NCBI GenBank assembly: GCA_036785375.1
Contig: JAWMAR010001442.1
Coordinates: 186,001 to 250,000, forward strand
Direction: 5' to 3'
Length of the DNA: 64,000 nt
Source: Leucoraja ocellata
Taxonomy: Eukaryota
Shown here: positions 2,740 to 43,838 of the stretch, one piece after another
Numbering within the stretch: position 1 is the first letter of the stretch
How the letters are laid out: each line of letters begins with the position of its first letter
Program-made: the position numbers and the translations under genes
Notes under the pieces: generated by a model
The model's input: only the letters and a program-made list of their open reading frames with translations
Told to the model about the DNA's origin: nothing
Databases searched by the model: none

Positions 2740-3045
2740 CTTGAGGCTTCGGGAACGCCGTTATTACCATGTTGTCTGGCTTGGATCCTGCCATGCAGTA
2801 GTAGGCATTCCTGTTCCAATCTGCTACAGAGACTCGCAGCAAGCTGCTCATTGTGTACTTGTTGTTTTGTCCCAACACTGGTGGGTACTTTGTGATTCCA
2901 TTGTTGATGACCCCACTGCTGGTGGACCATGTCTGACTGATGATCTCAGGCAGGTAGTCCTTGACCAGACAGAGGATGCTGATCTCTTGGCCAGATTCTG
3001 TGTTGCAGGAAGAGGTGATGTGGACTGAAGGCAAAACCACATCCT
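2740..3045 (-). CDS. IgW: IgW/IgX heavy-chain constant domain CH1 exon
   Basis: Acceptor atttccatttcag at 3046 and donor GTTAGT at 2739, phase 1-1, 306 nt. Encodes EDVVLPSVHITSSCNTESGQEISILCLVKDYLPEIISQTW...YTMSSLLRVSVADWNRNAYYC..., a C1-set domain with C-W-C and an extra N-terminal Cys (likely light-chain bond). Confidence 0.93.
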
Positions 3046-3524
3046 CTGAAATGGAAATAAATTAACAGTTGGTTCTATAGTAAATGGATTATTACCAGCG
3101 CATGCAACAGGTTCATGCTGATTGCTGAGTGAATGCAGGTGATTCAGGCTGAGAGAAGGCCAGGCAGAGCAGACAAATAGTTCCTTTCCCAGTCCCTTTC
3201 ACACCGTGCATGACCAAGCAGTGAAATGCTGATCTCACACTGGCGAAGCAACATCTGCCAACCAGAGGGACAAACCGGCCTGTGCTCTGGGTGATGTGTC
3301 CCAGGTCAGGAACCACATGGTATGGTGCCAGATGGACCATATCTATAACCACCGGGCCAAACGGTGCTGGATCTGGCCTGTTGTGGAACTCCTTCAATGC
3401 TGGGCCTCGGGGAGTGTTGTACAACTAAGGGATCTTGGAGAACAGCTACACAGATCCCAGGAAGCGTTGTCACAGGTAAATAGGTTGGTAAACAAAGCTA
3501 TTCATGAATCAGGGAATTGATATA

Positions 3525-4092
3525 CAGTAACCCCTCGTTTTAACGGACCACTTTATAACAGATTTTGGATGTAGCGGACGGACCTGCCGACAACACCCTT
3601 GCACGCATGGTCCTTGGAGTCACCAACATACTGCACCTTGGAAGCAGCAGCTGGTGAGAGGAGAGGGTGCCCCATGGTGAGCATGCACCTTGTCAGTGGC
3701 CTGAAGAAAACACTGCCAGTCAGAAGCTACATTGTGAGCCACAACCACAGCCGTGTCACCGGACCGTGCAGTGGATGAAGAAGGACTCGCTGGTGCAGAG
3801 CAGAGACAATGGCGCCTGGTTTTAAGTTGAAATAACACAAAGTACTTCAGTAACCCAGCAGACTGAATCAGTCTGAAGAAGATTCCCCACCTCACCTATT
3901 GATGTTCTCCAGAGATGCTCCCTGACCAGTTGAATTACTCCAGCACTTTGTGTCTTTTTGTGTATTAACCAGCATCTGCATTCTTTGTTTCAACTACATA
4001 CACGGGTAATACCTTTCTTGTTTAAAGCTACATTCGGCAATAATGGATACTATCCCCCCCACACCATGGTCCGTTATAATGAGGGTTTACTG
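3525..4092. mobile_element. Tc1/pogo-type MITE with ~25-bp TIRs, inserted in an old CR1
   Basis: Left end ta|cagtaacccctcgttttaacggacc; reverse complement of right end cagtaaaccctcattataacggacc. Confidence 0.7.
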
Positions 4093-4094
4093 TT

Positions 4095-4680
4095 CAGAAG
4101 TTGGATGTTATACTAGAATGTTACAAGAAATCGGTGAGGCTGAATTTGGAATACAATGTTGAGTTTTCATCAAGCTACTTTCGGAAAGATATCATTAGGC
4201 TAGAAGAGTGCTGAGAAGTTTCACAAGTATGTTGCCAGGACTCAAGGGCCTGAGCTGGAGGGAAATGTAGGGCAGGCTCGGACTTTACTCCTTTATACCT
4301 CTAGAAGGCAGAAGCGTGATCCTATAAAGGTGAATAAAATCATGAGCGGAATAGATAGGGTGAATGCACAGTCTATTACACAGGATAGGGGAATCAAGAT
4401 ATAGGTGTAAGATGAGAGGAACAAGATTTAATGGGAATGTGTGGGGAACTGTCACATACACAGGGTGGTGGATATATGGAACAGGCTGCCAGAGGAAACA
4501 GTTGAGGCAGGTACGATAACAGCATTTAAAAGACACTTGGACAGATACATGGATAGGAAAGAATTAGAGGACATGAGGTAAACATGGGCAAGTGGGACTA
4601 GCATACATGGAACATCAGGCTGCCTTGCACAAGCTGAGCTGAAGGGCTTGTTTCCGTGCTGTATGACTCTATGTCTCTGA
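4095..4680 (+). mobile_element. degenerate CR1 LINE 3' portion
   Basis: CR1 ORF2 C-terminal remnants and a 3' UTR ending gaagggcttgtttccgtgctgtatgactctatg. Confidence 0.75.
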
Positions 4681-5030
4681 GTTATTCATGGGCTGGGAAA
4701 TGCTTTGAGATGTCCTGGGGTTGTGGAAACCTTCAACAAAATGAAAAAACGTCAAATAAATGTGGAAATAGCGGTTGTCAGATACTGTACTGAAAGAGTT
4801 TGATGATAGAGCACTGAAGTGAAAGGGTGATTCTGCTTCTCTCCCCACAGATGCTGCCTGAGCTGTCGAGTGTTTTGTGCAGGAGGATCAATGATGTCAG
4901 GCGGCGAGACTTGTAGCTCACAGTGTTTTCCATCCCGGGATCAGCAGGTGGTGAGTGCAGTTTAATTTGGATCAATGTTCCTAATGTGGTCAGGAGGTGG
5001 GTCAGAGACAGGAAAACACATCATACTAGC

Positions 5031-5500
5031 AGCTGGGGTGAGGAGCTGGGTGTTGCAGTGAGGAGCTGGGTGCTGGGGGGAGGAGCTGGGTGCTGGGGGG
5101 AGGAGCTGGGTGCTGGGGGGAGGAGCTGGGTGCTGGGGGGAGGAGCTGGGGGGAGGAGCTGGGTGCTGGGGGGAGGAGCTGGGTGCTGGGGGGAGGAGCT
5201 GGGTGCTGGGGGGAGGAGCTGGGTGCTGGGGGGAGGAGCTGGGTGCTGGGGGGAGGAGCTGGGTGCTGGGGGGAGGAGCTGGGTGCTGGGGGGAGGAGCT
5301 GGGTGCTGGGGGGAGGAGCTGGGTGCTGGGGGGAGGAGCTGGGTGCTGGGGGGAGGAGCTGGGTGCTGGGGGGAGGAGCTGGGTGCTGGGGGGAGGAGCT
5401 GGGTGCTGGGGAGAGGAGCTGGGTGCTGGGGGGAGGAGCTGGGTGCTGGGGGGAGGAGCTGGGTGCTGGGGGGAGGGGCTGGGTGCTGGGGGGAGGAGCT
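5031..5500. repeat. 20-bp G-rich minisatellite (AGGAGCTGGGTGCTGGGGGG)x~23 in the JH-CH1 intron
   Basis: Directly visible near-perfect tandem array with one shortened unit at 5141-5153. Confidence 0.97.
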
Positions 5501-6329
5501 GCAATAAACTGCCCGTCTGGGTCGCCATCCTGGGGGCATTTAGTGCCAATTGCATTGCTGGGTCAGGGGTCAGAAATAGGCTCGACTGGATAAGGACAAT
5601 AGATCTCCTCTGAGGGACAGCAGGGAAATTGAGAGGTCATCATTACTATGGATTTGTGCACAAAATCCAGGTTACTAACAAAAGAAAATCTGACCCTGGT
5701 CCAATCTGTCCCAGATTACGAACAAAGTTTAAATTCCACAGTTGTTACGGACAACATTTTCCCCTCACCAGCGGTATGCCGATTCTGCTGTGTGCAGAGT
5801 GGATCCACAGTCCCTCCTTTACAACACGGCTCTATTGTGAACATGCCTCGCTGCCTGTGAAGTGCTCGGGAACACCATGAAAGGTGCTCTGTCAATCACT
5901 GAGATTCACTGAGACACCAGCAGCCCTGGTTAATGGAACAAAGCACGTGTTGGACAAACCCAGTCTGTCGGCTGGCGGAGGAGGGCAGCAAATTAGAGCC
6001 GTGCCTCCATCTGTGAACTGGGAAAAAGCAGCTCTTTTGTGCAGCAAAACCCACGTCAAAAACACCAAGCAACTTGACTCAGAATCTAAACTATGCGCAT
6101 CAGTGAATTCACAATGAAGAATAAAAGGTATTGACTTACTAAGGATCTCTAAATGTTGAAATTCAATACAAGACGCAACGAAAACCTGGTGTACTAAACC
6201 CCACATCTACAGTAGAACCATGTACAACATTCTCTCATTACTTTCAAATCATTCATTATTGTGAACCTTTGTTTTTGAACCAGCATCAATGTGATTTACA
6301 ATCTAGAGAATGTTCTGTGTTCTGAAGCA

Positions 6330-6650
6330 TTTACACAAGGAGTGTTTGACAGAGCAATGTAGAGGGAGCTCGACTCTGTATCAAACACACTGTCCCTGCA
6401 CTGGGAGAGAGTGTAGAGGCAACTTCACTCAGTGACTAACCCGTACCCTGGGTGTGTGTGGAGACAGGTTGGATGGAGCCTCACTCCTTGTCTAACCTGT
6501 GCTGCCCCTTCCCTGGGAGTGTTGGGACAGGGAGATGGAACTTTGTATCTAATCTGTAGCTGACAGCACAGTGACACGGGGAGATTTATTCTGCATTTGA
6601 CTCATGCTCTGTCTGACCTGGATGTGTTTGATGGGATCGCTTTGCGGGAG
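6330..6650. repeat. degenerate ~60-65-bp satellite-like tandem repeat
   Basis: Recurring motif gggagtgtttga...gtgtagagggagct..actctgtatctaacc in about 5 diverged copies. Confidence 0.55.
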
Positions 6651-6719
6651 CAGGTACTGGAGTCATAGCGTCATAGATTAATAGTGTGGAAACAGGCAGA
6701 TTAATCTCCAAAAGACTGG

Positions 6720-7990
6720 AGGGTGGCTGATACTGACGCGTAATTGAAGAAGGACATTAGGGCCAAGCCAGGGATCTACACCAGTGAGCCTGATGTCATT
6801 GGTGGGAATGTCCTTAGGGATAGGAACTACCCATATTTGGATAGACACGGACTGATTTGGGATAGTCCTAAATTTACAAGATCTAGATCATTTGGGAGGG
6901 TGGGCCAAGGATTAGGGACAGCATGGCTTGTGTTGGGGGAATTGTGCCTCGTGGACCTGATAAGGTTCAACAAGGTCTGGCATGGTGGGCTGGCGTGGAA
7001 GGTTAGATCACATGAAACCCAACATGAACTAAATTAGCTTGGAGGAAGTGGACTACTGCAGGGGTCAGTGCAGAGACCACTGTTGTTGGTTATCTACATT
7101 AACAGTTTGCCATACAATATAGTGGACATTGATAGTAAGTTTGCAGATGACACCAAAGTCAGAGCATGAGTGGACAGTGAGAGGGATAAGTTTACAATAA
7201 GATCAAGATCAGTTGGGAAAGGGAGCCAAGGAATGCCAAATGGAATTTAACTCTGACAAGTGAGGGAGTGTTGAACTTTGGTAGATCAAACCAGGGCTGG
7301 ACTTACACAGTAAATGGTAGCGCCTGAAGAGTGTTGTAGAACAGACAGATGTGGAAATGCAGGGGCATGGTTCGCTGAGAGTGGCGAGTTAGGTGGACGG
7401 GGAGCTGAGGTGGCTTTTGTCAGACTGCCTTCAATGGGAAGGGTACTGCGTATAAAAGTTGGGACATGATGATGCAGCTGTATAAGTCATTGGTGAGACC
7501 ACGCTTGGAGTAAGTACTGTGTGTAGTTCTGGTCACACAGCTACAGGATGTCATTATATTGGAAAGGACTTGGAAAAGATTCACCAAGATATTGTCTGGA
7601 CATGTGAGGTTCTGTTTTAGGGAGAGGGAGGATAAGATGGGTTTTTTCCCCTTTGGGGCAAAGAACACTGGGCAGTAACGTTATTGAGGTGAACAAGATC
7701 ATGAGGGGCATGGATAAGGTGCACGCTCACAGGCTTTGTACCAGGATAGAGGTTTCTAAAACAAGAGGGCACAGGCGTAAGGTGAGTGGGGAGAGATTAA
7801 AAAGGGGACTTCAAGGGCATTTTTATTCACAAAGGGTAGGCAGTATCTGGAATGAGTTGCCAGAGAAAACTATAAAAGCAGATAGAATTACGAAAAATCC
7901 GGTATATGGATGAGAAGGATATGTGGCCAATGGGCCGAGCCCAGAAAGCCAGCTTGATCGGCATGCACAAGATGGACTGAAGGCAGATGA
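6720..7990 (+). mobile_element. old, degenerate CR1 LINE
   Basis: Remnant SKFADDTK (agtaagtttgcagatgacaccaaa, 7135-7158) and C-terminal ORF2 motifs with many stops. Confidence 0.8.
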
Positions 7991-8203
7991 TGGCGAGACT
8001 CAGGGAAAGAACAGCCTGTGGGGCAGTTCAACGTGGTGGGAAATGTACTGTTGCTGGGTAGATTCTAACTCTGGAGAAACCCGCCTGTGTCCGGGAAATC
8101 CGTTCCAAATATCACACCGAGTTCAGGTCAATTACAGAATTGGCAAAGACCATACATTAATAAAACACAACTGGGTAAAATGGAATTGAGGAATTGGTCT
8201 TAC

Positions 8204-8251
8204 CTGAAGTCACTGTCAGCGAGGTTCCTGCACCCCAGTAGTAAAGATAGT
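8204..8251 (-). CDS. IGHJ: JH segment (YLYYWGAGTSLTVTS)
   Basis: WGxG motif, GTAAGA donor at 8203-8198 (phase 1), and an upstream 23-bp RSS. Confidence 0.93.
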
Positions 8252-8616: not shown

Positions 8617-8682
8617 AGTTTTTGTTCAGCTCTCCACCGCCGTGGGCCAGTATACACGGTGATTCACCGCCGCTCACAAACT
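8617..8682 (-). other. IGHD: DH segment TATACTGGCC (8645-8654) flanked by two 12-bp-spacer RSSs
   Basis: J-facing RSS: CACGGCG (8644-8638), 12 bp, ACAAAAACT (8625-8617). V-facing RSS: CACGGTG (8655-8661), 12 bp, TCACAAACT (8674-8682). Confidence 0.9.
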
Positions 8683-9009
8683 GCGCTACCACATCCAGTC
8701 CGAAATCCAACACTGGCCAGAGTGGACAACGGTTTAATTAAAGCCCCGTCCATGTGTGTCCATGTGTCCCACACAGCAGTGTCCAGTCTCGGCCATTGCA
8801 GCCCTGTAGTGAACAGGAGATAACCCACCGCGACTGTCACCGTGCCTCGACCCACAGCGGCTCCTCGCTGTTTGTGTTCCCACATCTCCAGTGGAACTTG
8901 TTCCCTGTGCCAGATGATGCACTCTGGATCTGGTTTATATCCACGGGTCCCGAGGAAAGGCGGCGGCGGCAGCGCCCAGAGACGTGATTTAAAGCGTTTG
9001 GCTGCGGCA

Positions 9010-9047: not shown

Positions 9048-9357
9048 CCACCCGTATAGTCTCTCGCACAGTAATAGGTGGCCGTGTCGGCCAGACTCAG
9101 GCGGGTCATTTGGAGATAGACGTTGCTGCTGTCCGAGGAAACCTCGAATCGGCCGCTGAAGGCTGGCGCGTACAGTTTGCTGCTACCCCTCACTCTACCC
9201 ACCCACTCCAGCCCTTTCCCGGGGACTTGTTTCACCCAATGCACGGAGTAGTCGCTGAGGGTGAACCCGCTGGTTGCACAGGTCAGTTTGAGGGACTCTC
9301 CAGACTTTGCCACCTCGGTCGGTTTCTGATTCAGCACTGATTCAGCGGATCGAACGC
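9048..9357 (-). CDS. IGHV: VH exon of IgW/IgX family, probably germline-joined to D1
   Basis: Acceptor ttttattgacag at 9358. Open frame GVRSAESVLNQKPTEVAKSGESLKLTCATSGFTLSDYSVHWVKQVPGKGLEWVG...DTATYYCARDYTG with canonical Cys/Trp/Cys. Confidence 0.96.
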
Positions 9358-9475: not shown

Positions 9476-9521
9476 CTGGCAGACAGGACAGAAGGAGACA
9501 GAGATAAGCAGCGACCCCCAT
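9476..9521 (-). CDS. IGHV: VH leader (signal peptide) exon MGVAAYLCLLLSCLP(G)
   Basis: ATG at 9521, hydrophobic 15 aa, phase-1 GTGGGT donor at 9475, 118-nt intron to the V exon. Confidence 0.92.
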
Positions 9522-9610: not shown

Positions 9611-9762
9611 TTTAAATAGGAAAGTGAGCTGTGAGTGAGAGACAGAGAGAGGTAGCCGCGGTTTCCCCACCCACTGAAACCAGAGGCGCGGCTTCCTGTC
9701 CCTGTCCCTGCCCCCAGCACCCAGTTCAATTCCCCAAAAGGTGTTTCTCTCCACAACAGGTG
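9611..9762 (-). promoter_or_regulatory. VH promoter: TATA-like TATTTAAA plus ETS and E-box motifs, no octamer
   Basis: TATTTAAA at 9618-9611 (~90 nt upstream of ATG), ACAGGAAG at 9699-9692, CAGGTG at 9757-9762, GGAAAGTGA at 9619-9627. Confidence 0.6.
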
Positions 9763-9884: not shown

Positions 9885-10260
9885 AGTCGGTGTACAGATA
9901 TCCCCCTGAGAGAGAGGGACATCTGTCAATGTAGATATCCCCTGCCTTGGGAGAGAGGGGCTAAATTTCACCGGTCAGTGTACAGATATCGTGGTGAGAG
10001 AGAGGGACTGAGAGAGACCGGTCAGTGTACAGATATCGTGGTGAGAGAGAGGACTGAGAGACCGGTCAGTGTACAGATATCGTGGTGAGAGAGAGGGACT
10101 GAGAGAGACCGGTCAGTGAACAGATATCCCCCTGAGCGAGTGGGACTGAGAGACCGGTCAGTGTACAGATATCGTGGTGAGAGAGAGACACGGACTGAGA
10201 GAGACCAGTTAGTGCAGATATCCACATTAATGAGAGGGACTGAGAGACACCAGTCAGTTT
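9885..10260. repeat. ~45-48-bp tandem repeat (ccggtcagtgtacagatatcgtggtgagagagagggactgagaga)
   Basis: About 7-8 visible copies directly upstream of the VH promoter. Confidence 0.88.
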
Positions 10261-10879
10261 GAGTTGAGTTTATTGTCACATGTACCGAGGTACAGTGAAA
10301 AGCTTTAGTTGCATGTTAACCAGACAACAGACGGACAATACATGATTACAATTGAGCACAGTGAGCTGAAACATGATGAAGGGAATAACATGAATAAAGT
10401 TCAGTGCAAGATAAAACCAGTAAATTCTGATCAAAGATAGTGCGAGGATCTCCAATGAGGTAGATAGAGCACAGAAGTCAAGCTACAACAGCCAGTCGTG
10501 ATGCTATGAATGAAGTCCATCTACGCCTATATCAGCGACAATCTACAACAATGTATGACCATACCGGCGACATGCTACGACCATACTAATGACATGCTAC
10601 GATCATACCGGTGACATGCTACGACAGCTGGCGACCATCGGCAACAGTTGACGTGACTAGCTACACCAGGCTACAACAGTGGCTCCTCCATGAGTCTCCT
10701 TTTCTCCAGGAGACGGCCCACCCAGTGTCTTCGGCTCCTGAAACAGCTCAGGGGGAAGCCTGGTGAAGTGTCTGAAGGCAGCCTCATCTTCTTGCTGGAG
10801 CTCAGTCATCAGGTTGTCATATTGGCCCAACCTGGGTCTCTACAGGGACAAGGGCTTCAACCACACACACATCTCTTCT

Positions 10880-29985: not shown

Positions 29986-30374
29986 ATCTTTTAACTCTTT
30001 AATGATTAGGCTATCGGCAACGCATATTTTCCCCGAGCCCCCAGCCCTCCCCACCCCCCCCTCCCTCCGATCTCAGAATGGAAATGTTGCATCTGTATAT
30101 AATGATCCCATTAAAATGTGTATTTATGTCACAAACTATGGAATTCATATTTTTCAGTATTGTTATCAAGGAAAAGAAAGCAGTTCCAATTGTTTGATAT
30201 AATTTGATATTGTTTAATATTATTCATATGGAGGAGAAACTATAATAGATATAAACCTACCTTAATTTTGAAATCTCACTCAATCCCCCTTTCCTTCTCC
30301 CCTCCCCCTTCTCCTCTCTCCCTTCCCCACTCTCTCTCCCCCTTCCCCCTCTCACACACCCCCCTCTTTCTCAG

Positions 30375-30587
30375 CAGGGGTGGAGTGGGCCCAGCAGGGG
30401 TGGCGTGGGCCCAGCGGGGGTGGCGTGGGCCCGGCGGGGGTGGCGTGGGCCCAGCGGGGGTGGTGTGGGCCCAGCGGGGTTGGCATGAGCCCAGCGGGGG
30501 TGGCGTGGGCCCAGCGGGGGTGGCGTGGGCCCAGTGGGGGTGGTGTGGGCCCAGCGGGGGTGGCATGGGCCCAGCGGGGGTGGCGTG
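30375..30587. repeat. 20-bp GC-rich minisatellite (GGGCCCAGCGGGGGTGGCGT)x~10
   Basis: Visible tandem array. Confidence 0.93.
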
Positions 30588-42947: not shown

Positions 42948-43838
42948 CACACCCACCAACACGCCCAACGACACACCCGCTGACATGCCCACCAACATGC
43001 CCACCGACATGCCCACCGACATGCCCACCAACACGCCCACCGACACACCTGCTGACATGCCCACCGACATGCCCACCAACATGCCCACCGACATGCCCGC
43101 CGACACACCCGCTGACACACCCACTGACATGCCCACTGACATGCCACTGACATGCCCACCGACATGCCCACCGACATGCCCACCGACATGCCACTGACAT
43201 GCCCACCGACATGCCCACCGACATGCCCACCGACATGCCCACTGACATGCCCACCGACATGCCCACCGACATGCCCACCGGCACGCCCACCAACTAGGTG
43301 TGTTACAATACTTACCTTCAGCGGCACTGTAATTCTGCCACTGGCCGTGTGCGCGATTTCGGCGCGTTTGAGGGGGGGCGGGGTTAAAACGGGTTTTTTT
43401 CCCAACCTGGTCCTGAATTATCTATAATAATTGAACATTTCTTTCAGTTCTCTTAAATTTTAAGAAACTTATCGGCTTTTAAATGTTCTCAAACACAGCT
43501 TTTGTGTTAAGTCAATGAAAAAGCAATAGGGAACAAGATGCCAATTTCCAAATATGAAAATGGACAAAAAAAATTAATACTGAAGATATGAAAGTGGATT
43601 AGGTGTCAAATTAAACTTCTTTTTATGCTTTATCTCATGGGATAAATTAAAGACTTGATTTTTTAAATCTCAAAATGTTGTAACATTGTTACATCAACAT
43701 GCCCACCGACACGCCCACCAACATGCCCACCGACACGCCCACTGTCATGCCCACCCACATGCCCACCTACATGCCCACTGACATGCCCACTGACATGCCC
43801 ACCGACACGCCCACCGACACGCCCACCGACATGCCCAC
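42948..43838. repeat. 12-bp minisatellite (ACATGCCCACCG)n interrupted by a DNA-transposon insertion
   Basis: Arrays at 42948-43294 and 43692-43838. Confidence 0.92.
43295..43691 (-). mobile_element. non-autonomous TIR DNA transposon (short copy), 7-bp TSD
   Basis: Ends taggtgtgttacaa...ttgtaacattgtta; flanks caccaac/catcaac; homologous (inverted) to 58829-59848. Confidence 0.75.

What the first reader, a model, noticed from the sequence alone, without database searches (positions are those of the whole stretch)
5031..5500. Switch-region-like AID-hotspot array in the JH-CH1 intron
Seen: about 23 units of AGGAGCTGGGTGCTGGGGGG, each with two WGCW motifs (AGCT, TGCT), a GAGCT pentamer and G-runs capable of G-quadruplex folding, ~2 kb upstream of CH1. 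Known: tetrapod S-mu regions occupy this intron and are built from GAGCT/GGGGT pentamers, and WGCW is the overlapping AID hotspot. Cartilaginous fish are generally described as lacking canonical S regions, although switching between clusters has been reported. Inferred: this could be a proto-switch recombination target. Caveats: the G-rich strand is the template strand here (opposite to mammalian S regions), and an unrelated G-rich 20-bp minisatellite without WGCW lies at 30375.
Basis: partly seen in the sequence, partly recalled or inferred. Interest (0 to 1): 0.72.

Follow-up and report, generated by a model that had tools for sequence, protein, structure and literature searches.

The report
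Skate IgW intron AID-motif minisatellite
A short repeat rich in the target motif of the antibody-mutating enzyme AID sits at the same spot in 8 of this skate's 10 IgW antibody genes and in none of 27 IgM genes checked; it is likely a passenger repeat copied along with the genes, not a true class-switch region, though it would be a plausible accidental break site.

Summary
The array is real: 5032-5501, a 20-bp unit x23.9, 45 WGCW, in the J-CH1 intron of a skate IgW cluster, G-rich on the template strand. The unit is IgW-specific: all 135 genomic copies of a 22-bp unit pattern lie in 8 arrays (231-1040 bp) at one intron position in 8 of 10 IgW clusters. Runs of three related organisms show it too. 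But the 8 introns are about 98% identical, so they count as one origin. Two older IgW clusters with open frames lack it, and 0 of 27 IgM clusters have any AGCT-rich tract. It is short, inverted, and half as WGCW-dense as mouse S-mu. Its variants do not spare WGCW, and it shows no germline recombination peak. One of 88 blind 5-kb blocks holds an array as AGCT/WGCW-rich, and more S-mu-like arrays lie at non-Ig loci. Verdict: a lineage-restricted minisatellite carried along with IgW duplications, not a tetrapod-type switch region. It is plausibly an incidental AID break site, which 8 array-positive versus 2 array-negative clusters in one animal make testable.

The parts
5032..5501 (+). 20-bp G-rich minisatellite, 23.9 units, one 13-bp short unit (unit minus one heptamer); C-rich on the transcribed sense strand
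4784..5748 (.). Intron segment (array plus about 250 bp of flank on each side) present in the 8 array-bearing IgW clusters and missing in the two C128 clusters; no donor copy elsewhere in the genome
4830..4880 (.). Short decayed piece of a dispersed repeat (77-93% alike to 32 other places; SINE-like by recall)
3046..8203 (-). IgW J-CH1 intron, GT..AG, 5.16 kb
2740..3045 (-). IgW CH1 exon, open frame
8204..8251 (-). JH segment (WGAGT), recombination signal upstream
8645..8852 (-). D2 and D3 segments, each with signal sequences
9048..9357 (-). VH exon already joined to D1 in the germline, followed by the D1 3' signal
9476..9521 (-). Leader exon
9711..9724 (-). 14-bp copy of the array core in the VH promoter region, opposite orientation to the array

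Best explanation
It is a 20-bp minisatellite shared by 8 of 10 IgW J-CH1 introns, which likely arose once and was copied as a passenger when those clusters duplicated, and which would at most be an incidental AID break site in B cells, not a selected switch region. Shown: one position, one unit, 231-1040 bp in length, flanks 98% alike, presence in related organisms, absence from IgM and from two older IgW clusters. Inferred origin: a WGCTGGG heptamer was doubled and joined to a G-run, then amplified by slippage or unequal exchange; loss of one heptamer gives the 13-bp variant. Inferred from mouse data: because it lies inside a transcribed Ig gene, AID could deaminate its paired hotspots on both strands and now and then break it. 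Such a break would most easily rejoin to the same array or to near-identical intron DNA of another IgW cluster, not to IgM.
For: One origin: introns 1.2-2.2% apart among the 8 clusters (less within two near-identical pairs) and 6-7.6% from the C128 pair. A WGCW-free 47-bp repeat upstream of V has the same 8-of-10 distribution. Dispensable: both C128 clusters have open V and five open C exons plus recognisable signals, and no array. No isotype partner: 27 of 27 IgM V-J-Cmu1 stretches hold at most 2-4 AGCT per 400 bp. No sparing of hotspots: 7 of 12 distinct substitutions fall in the 8 of 20 WGCW positions and 6 destroy the motif; 4.8 expected. No germline exchange peak: four-gamete incompatibility across the array is 0.30, range 0.24-0.42 over 55 cut points. 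Background: 1 of 88 blind 5-kb blocks has a 1263-bp array with AGCT 49/kb and WGCW 105/kb, against 49 and 96 here. Three arrays of 534-1262 bp with AGCT 80-101/kb lie beside a receptor-kinase-like exon with no Ig domain. A tandem GAGCTGGGG pattern has 1572 matches genome-wide. Incidental AID target: WGCW repeats of 400 bp or more made up 46% of reproducible off-target AID breaks in mouse B cells (PMC4532491), and inverted switch DNA is mutated as well as forward DNA though it switches poorly (PMC5485518).
Against: The coincidence is not trivial: only 1-2 of 88 intron-sized blocks carry such an array, and the one blind match lacks long G-runs. The array has been kept in organisms 3-6% diverged. 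Variant units seen there change AGCT to AGCA, which is still WGCW. 289 of 298 WGCW sites in parsed units are intact. Absence in C128 looks like a deletion, so the array may be older than that split. No B-cell data were examined.
Confidence: 0.68

Rival explanations
1. A convergent, selected switch-like region: the array focuses AID breaks so that a rearranged VDJ moves between tandem IgW clusters.
For: Right intron. WGCW 8.8-10 per 100 bp in all 8 arrays. Same-orientation IgW pairs lie 238 kb (C481) and 160 kb (C1442) apart, like the >120 kb over which nurse sharks switch (PMC4279169). Kept across related organisms. CH1 differs 2-7% between clusters, more than the introns do, so swapping could matter. 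The AT-rich Xenopus S-mu works through AGCT without G-richness (PMC2442634).
Against: Short (231-1040 bp), inverted, half the WGCW density of mouse S-mu (19 per 100 bp). No IgM partner. Absent from open C128 clusters. Substitutions do not spare WGCW. Reviews report that sharks switch without S regions.
Confidence: 0.13
2. A homotypic cluster of transcription-factor sites, or a G-quadruplex pause element, that tunes IgW transcription or splicing.
For: A 14-bp copy of the core lies in the VH promoter region (13 or 14 bp in all 8 array-bearing clusters) and differs at two bases in C128. No 13-mer of the unit occurs in 720 kb of background and IgM DNA. The unit holds CACCC and CTCCTCCCC motifs (zinc-finger sites by recall).
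Against: A post hoc match. Four-fold length variation among clusters. No expression or chromatin data.
Confidence: 0.08
3. A germline recombination hotspot that drives concerted evolution or reshuffling of IgW clusters.
For: The clusters are mosaics of one another, and the C128 junction removes the array with both flanks.
Against: Incompatibility shows no peak at the array. The two close pairs (C1015a/b, C481b/C3005) stay paired on both sides of it.
Confidence: 0.04
4. A relic homologous to tetrapod S-mu, the ancestral proto-switch region.
For: Position in the J-CH1 intron and the GAGCT pentamer.
Against: A homogeneous unit among copies 2% apart, in IgW and not IgM, in opposite orientation. 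The same motif family arises at many non-Ig places.
Confidence: 0.02

Closest known systems
Mammalian S-mu/S-gamma switch regions (PMC2442634, PMC5485518, PMC4532491; passages read)
   Same: J-CH1 intron, tandem GAGCT/WGCW motifs, G-runs on one strand.
   Different: 0.2-1.0 kb against 1-10 kb; G on the template strand; 9-10 against 19 WGCW per 100 bp; no partner before the other isotype; I promoter not shown.
Amphibian S regions (Xenopus S-mu, axolotl S-mu/S-chi/S-upsilon; PMC2442634, PMC9911811; passages read)
   Same: AGCT/WGCW density is the shared feature; G-richness is not required.
   Different: Axolotl regions span 12-15 kb intervals and stand before IgM, IgX and IgY in one locus; this is a short repeat in one isotype.
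Off-target WGCW tandem repeats broken by AID in mouse B cells (PMC4532491; abstract and passages read)
   Same: A tandem WGCW repeat; four of the eight arrays exceed 400 bp; inside a transcribed gene; no selection needed.
   Different: Here it lies inside an Ig gene with near-identical paralogues, so a break could yield a productive exchange; density is below that of the pentamer repeats.
Nurse shark inter-cluster switching without S regions (reviews PMC4279169, PMC4588147, PMC8201067; passages read; primary papers not held)
   Same: Same gene class and cluster layout; the process this array could bias.
   Different: Shark switching runs both ways between IgM and IgW with no S region reported; no switching data exist here for this skate.
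G-rich vertebrate minisatellites (VNTRs; recalled)
   Same: 20-bp period, strand-biased G, variant units, 4.5-fold length spread.
   Different: Unusually WGCW-rich, and multiplied with an Ig cluster.

Membership tests
Tetrapod Ig switch region | Lies in the intron upstream of CH1 | tested here: met
   2.0 kb upstream of CH1, 2.7 kb downstream of J
Tetrapod Ig switch region | Tandem repeats dense in AGCT/WGCW | tested here: met
   8.8-10 WGCW per 100 bp; mouse genome mean 2.0, S-mu 19
Tetrapod Ig switch region | Length 1-10 kb | tested here: not met
   231-530 bp in 7 of 8 arrays, 1040 bp in one; range from PMC2442634
Tetrapod Ig switch region | G-rich non-template strand (mammalian type, forms R-loops) | tested here: not met
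   C-rich sense strand in 8 of 8
Tetrapod Ig switch region | Donor and acceptor regions before different isotypes | tested here: not met
   0 of 27 IgM clusters read, of 40 IgM-type V hits; IgNAR introns not read, though the unit pattern occurs only in IgW arrays
Tetrapod Ig switch region | Intronic promoter and germline transcript through the region | not tested
   No RNA run was laid
Tetrapod Ig switch region | AID mutations and switch junctions inside it in B cells | not testable with these tools
   Needs B-cell DNA
Tetrapod Ig switch region | Conserved as a feature across the clade | tested here: inconclusive
Minisatellite (VNTR) | Head-to-tail units of 10-100 bp | tested here: met
   Period 20, 94% matches
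Minisatellite (VNTR) | Copy number varies, with interspersed variant units | tested here: met
   12-53 units among paralogues, with 13-bp and point variants; allelic variation between animals not tested
Interior of a mobile element | Flanks dispersed in many genomic copies | tested here: not met
   Full-length flank matches only at the 8 IgW clusters

The most novel reading that the evidence does not exclude
Skates have independently evolved a working switch-like region: an inverted WGCW/G4 minisatellite in the IgW J-CH1 intron that focuses AID breaks and moves a rearranged VDJ onto the constant exons of a neighbouring IgW cluster. It would be the first S-like element in a cartilaginous fish and a living model of how switch regions arise from ordinary minisatellites.
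Probability: 0.13. Interest if true: 0.8.

Novelty: new member of a known kind. Interest (0 to 1): 0.33.

Why it matters
Reviews state that shark Ig loci lack switch regions although VDJ can move between clusters, and that how this is directed is unknown. As a passenger repeat the array changes nothing. Its value is as a natural experiment: one animal carries IgW clusters with arrays of 0, 0.23-0.5 and 1.0 kb in otherwise near-identical introns, so one can ask whether a chance WGCW repeat is enough to attract AID breaks and junctions. A yes would show a plausible first step in the origin of switch regions.

Tried and rejected
Mobile-element interior: rejected, the flanks are unique to IgW. Assembly artefact: rejected, eight arrays differ in length and variant order, and independent runs hold flank and units. 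Germline hotspot: no peak (7 clusters, C1015b left out as near-identical to C1015a, 113 sites). Hairpin: weak, MFE -7.5 kcal/mol for 100 nt with a nearly empty centroid; G4 is not modelled there. Coding role: the long open frames over the array are repeat read-through on the strand opposite the gene. Low array depth in organism G is not read as absence, because organism B, the closest label laid, was also low at the array edge. In one search one row (last unit position, 15 counts) was dropped as mostly a parsing effect of the 13-bp units, and two variants the parser missed were added by eye. Regions L022-L026 and L076 were fetched and not analysed; L077 showed no J or Cmu1 and is not counted as IgM. 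Primary papers not held: Zhu 2012, Zhang 2013, Zhu 2011, Zhang 2015, Zarrin 2005, Harding 1990. Nine paper searches listed no description of this repeat; this is listing-level only, and the unread papers or their supplements may describe intron repeats.

Full report
Observation. The array is as described: 5032-5501, period 20, 23.9 copies, with 23 AGCT and 45 WGCW in 470 bp and strong G4 potential on the + strand. The host gene reads on the minus strand: leader, V already joined to D1, D2, D3, J, a 5.16-kb intron, CH1, and five further C exons beyond the window. CH1 is 93-96% identical to little-skate heavy chains, so this is skate IgW (the IgX/IgW label is partly recalled). The array lies 2.7 kb after J and 2.0 kb before CH1, and the transcript carries the C-rich strand.

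Distribution in the genome. A two-unit pattern gave 96 matches in 8 arrays. A 22-bp one-unit pattern gave 135 matches, and all 135 are accounted for by the same 8 arrays. CH1 and V searches each found 10 IgW clusters. Eight carry the array at the same place and in the same orientation, 231-1040 bp long. The two clusters on C128 lack it along with about 250 bp of flank on each side. The flanks have no full-length copy outside the 8 clusters, so loss in C128 is more likely than insertion, and the array is not the interior of a mobile element. Both C128 clusters have open V and C exons. Of 40 IgM-type V hits I read 27 through Cmu1; none has a tandem array of this kind, and the maximum is 2-4 AGCT per 400 bp. 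IgM is inferred from the four-domain layout and tail, not from a database search.

One origin. The 8 introns are 1.2-2.2% apart, apart from two near-identical pairs (0-0.4%) that may be alleles or very recent copies, and 6-7.6% from C128. Presence in 8 clusters is therefore one event. A WGCW-free 47-bp repeat upstream of V has the same 8-of-10 pattern, which shows that ordinary repeats ride along with these duplications.

Other organisms. Contigs of four coded organisms cover the unique flank; pieces differ from the window by about 3% (C), 1-6% (D) and 4-9% (G). Depth over array units was 3451-5446 against 213 in the flank for C, 1207-1899 against 87-205 for D, and 3551-5940 against 195-754 for E. 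G showed no rise, but a contig runs from the flank into diverged units, as one does in D. Depth is summed over contigs and is not a copy number, and other loci may add to it. The array thus predates these splits. Some units there read AGCA for AGCT, which keeps WGCW; this is the one hint of constraint.

Tests for function. Among the 8 arrays, 7 of 12 distinct substitutions hit the 8 WGCW positions of the unit and 6 destroy the motif, against 4.8 expected, so hotspots are not spared, though numbers are small. The clusters are mosaics, but incompatibility across the array (0.30) is mid-range for the region (0.24-0.42), so there is no sign of a germline hotspot.

Background. In 443 kb taken at round coordinates (30 regions from IgW-bearing contigs, 10 from others, and window 20-64 kb), 1 of 88 5-kb blocks has an array matching this one for AGCT and WGCW and 2.7 times longer; 2 of 88 reach its WGCW peak; 2 of 16 minisatellites have 95 or more WGCW per kb. 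No Ig domain was found in that sample. A period-20 GGAGCTGGG pattern gave 220 matches, 141 in IgW arrays and 79 elsewhere. Among them are three arrays on C162, 534-1262 bp with 80-101 AGCT per kb and G-runs, closer to mouse S-mu than ours, near a receptor-kinase-like exon; a 1.35-kb array on C416 has a unit 17 of 20 alike. A tandem GAGCTGGGG pattern has 1572 matches, the first 100 at 36 places. Such arrays are thus a regular product of this genome. Still, a 1-2% chance per intron is low enough to keep the functional reading alive.

Comparison with the literature (passages only). [quoted passage not shown] Mouse S-mu has 19 WGCW per 100 bp, and WGCW repeats of 400 bp or more are favoured off-target AID break sites (PMC4532491). 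Inverted S DNA is mutated equally but switches poorly (PMC5485518). Axolotl S regions are AGCT/WGCW-rich intervals of 12-15 kb (PMC9911811). Reviews say sharks switch between clusters in both directions without S regions (PMC4279169; PMC4588147; PMC8201067; PMC5192425). PMC12227049 added only that the IgH isotypes are linked. The primary shark papers were not held, so I could not check where their junctions fall. Nine searches listed no report of this repeat.

Verdict. It fails membership of the switch-region family on length, orientation and isotype pairing, and meets the definition of a minisatellite. It could still work like a weak switch substrate by accident, and if so mostly between IgW clusters. 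Passenger repeat 0.68, selected switch-like region 0.13, regulatory array 0.08, germline hotspot 0.04, ancestral relic 0.02. Interest 0.33, mainly for the within-animal test it offers.

Noticed in passing
window 9048-9357; C481, C2945, C3005 clusters: IgW clusters here are V-D1-D2-D3-J. The window's V is germline-joined to D1, as in C2945; C481b and C3005 carry a different V-D1 join; C2945 also has D3-J joined and a stop in CH1; C481a has a D-J join that removes the other D segments.
   Followed up: partly
window 2740-3045 and 9048-9357 against the other IgW clusters: CH1 (2.3-7.1%) and V (5-8%) differ more between most clusters than the introns do (1.2-2.2%), which hints at diversifying selection. 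The CH1 3' end of C481b/C3005 matches the C128 type, suggesting a conversion tract.
   Followed up: partly
window 9711-9724: A 14-bp copy of the array core in the VH promoter region, opposite orientation, 13-14 bp in all 8 array-bearing clusters and two bases different in C128; no 13-mer of the unit in 720 kb of other DNA.
   Followed up: partly
G000:C162:2673725-2686050 (L066, L067): Three strongly S-mu-like arrays (GGAGCT/GGGGCT units, 80-101 AGCT per kb) a few kb from a receptor tyrosine kinase-like last exon; no Ig domain.
   Followed up: partly
first listed places on G000 C1-C10, also L072, L073: A dispersed family with an internal 19-bp GAGCTGGGG repeat, probably several hundred copies, likely inside a mobile element.
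   Followed up: no
L108:1175-2437 (G000:C128 near 2.00 Mb): An 18-bp minisatellite with two WGCW per unit over 1263 bp, found in the blind sample.
   Followed up: no
G000:C1015 and G000:C128: Each holds an inverted pair of IgW clusters (0-0.1% and 0.7-1.6% apart outside V); recent duplication or an assembly effect.
   Followed up: no
window 9970-10248, 10557-10625, 30372-30587, 42952-43838: Further minisatellites of 47, 22, 20 and 12 bp; the 12-bp unit recurs as long arrays elsewhere on C1442.
   Followed up: partly
L018 (G000:C1442, about 182-187 kb): The window's cluster and C2945 share a 4.8-kb stretch downstream of CH1 that the other clusters lack.
   Followed up: no
L080, L081: Two IgM clusters have a Cmu1 frame that breaks off early, probably pseudogenes.
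   Followed up: no
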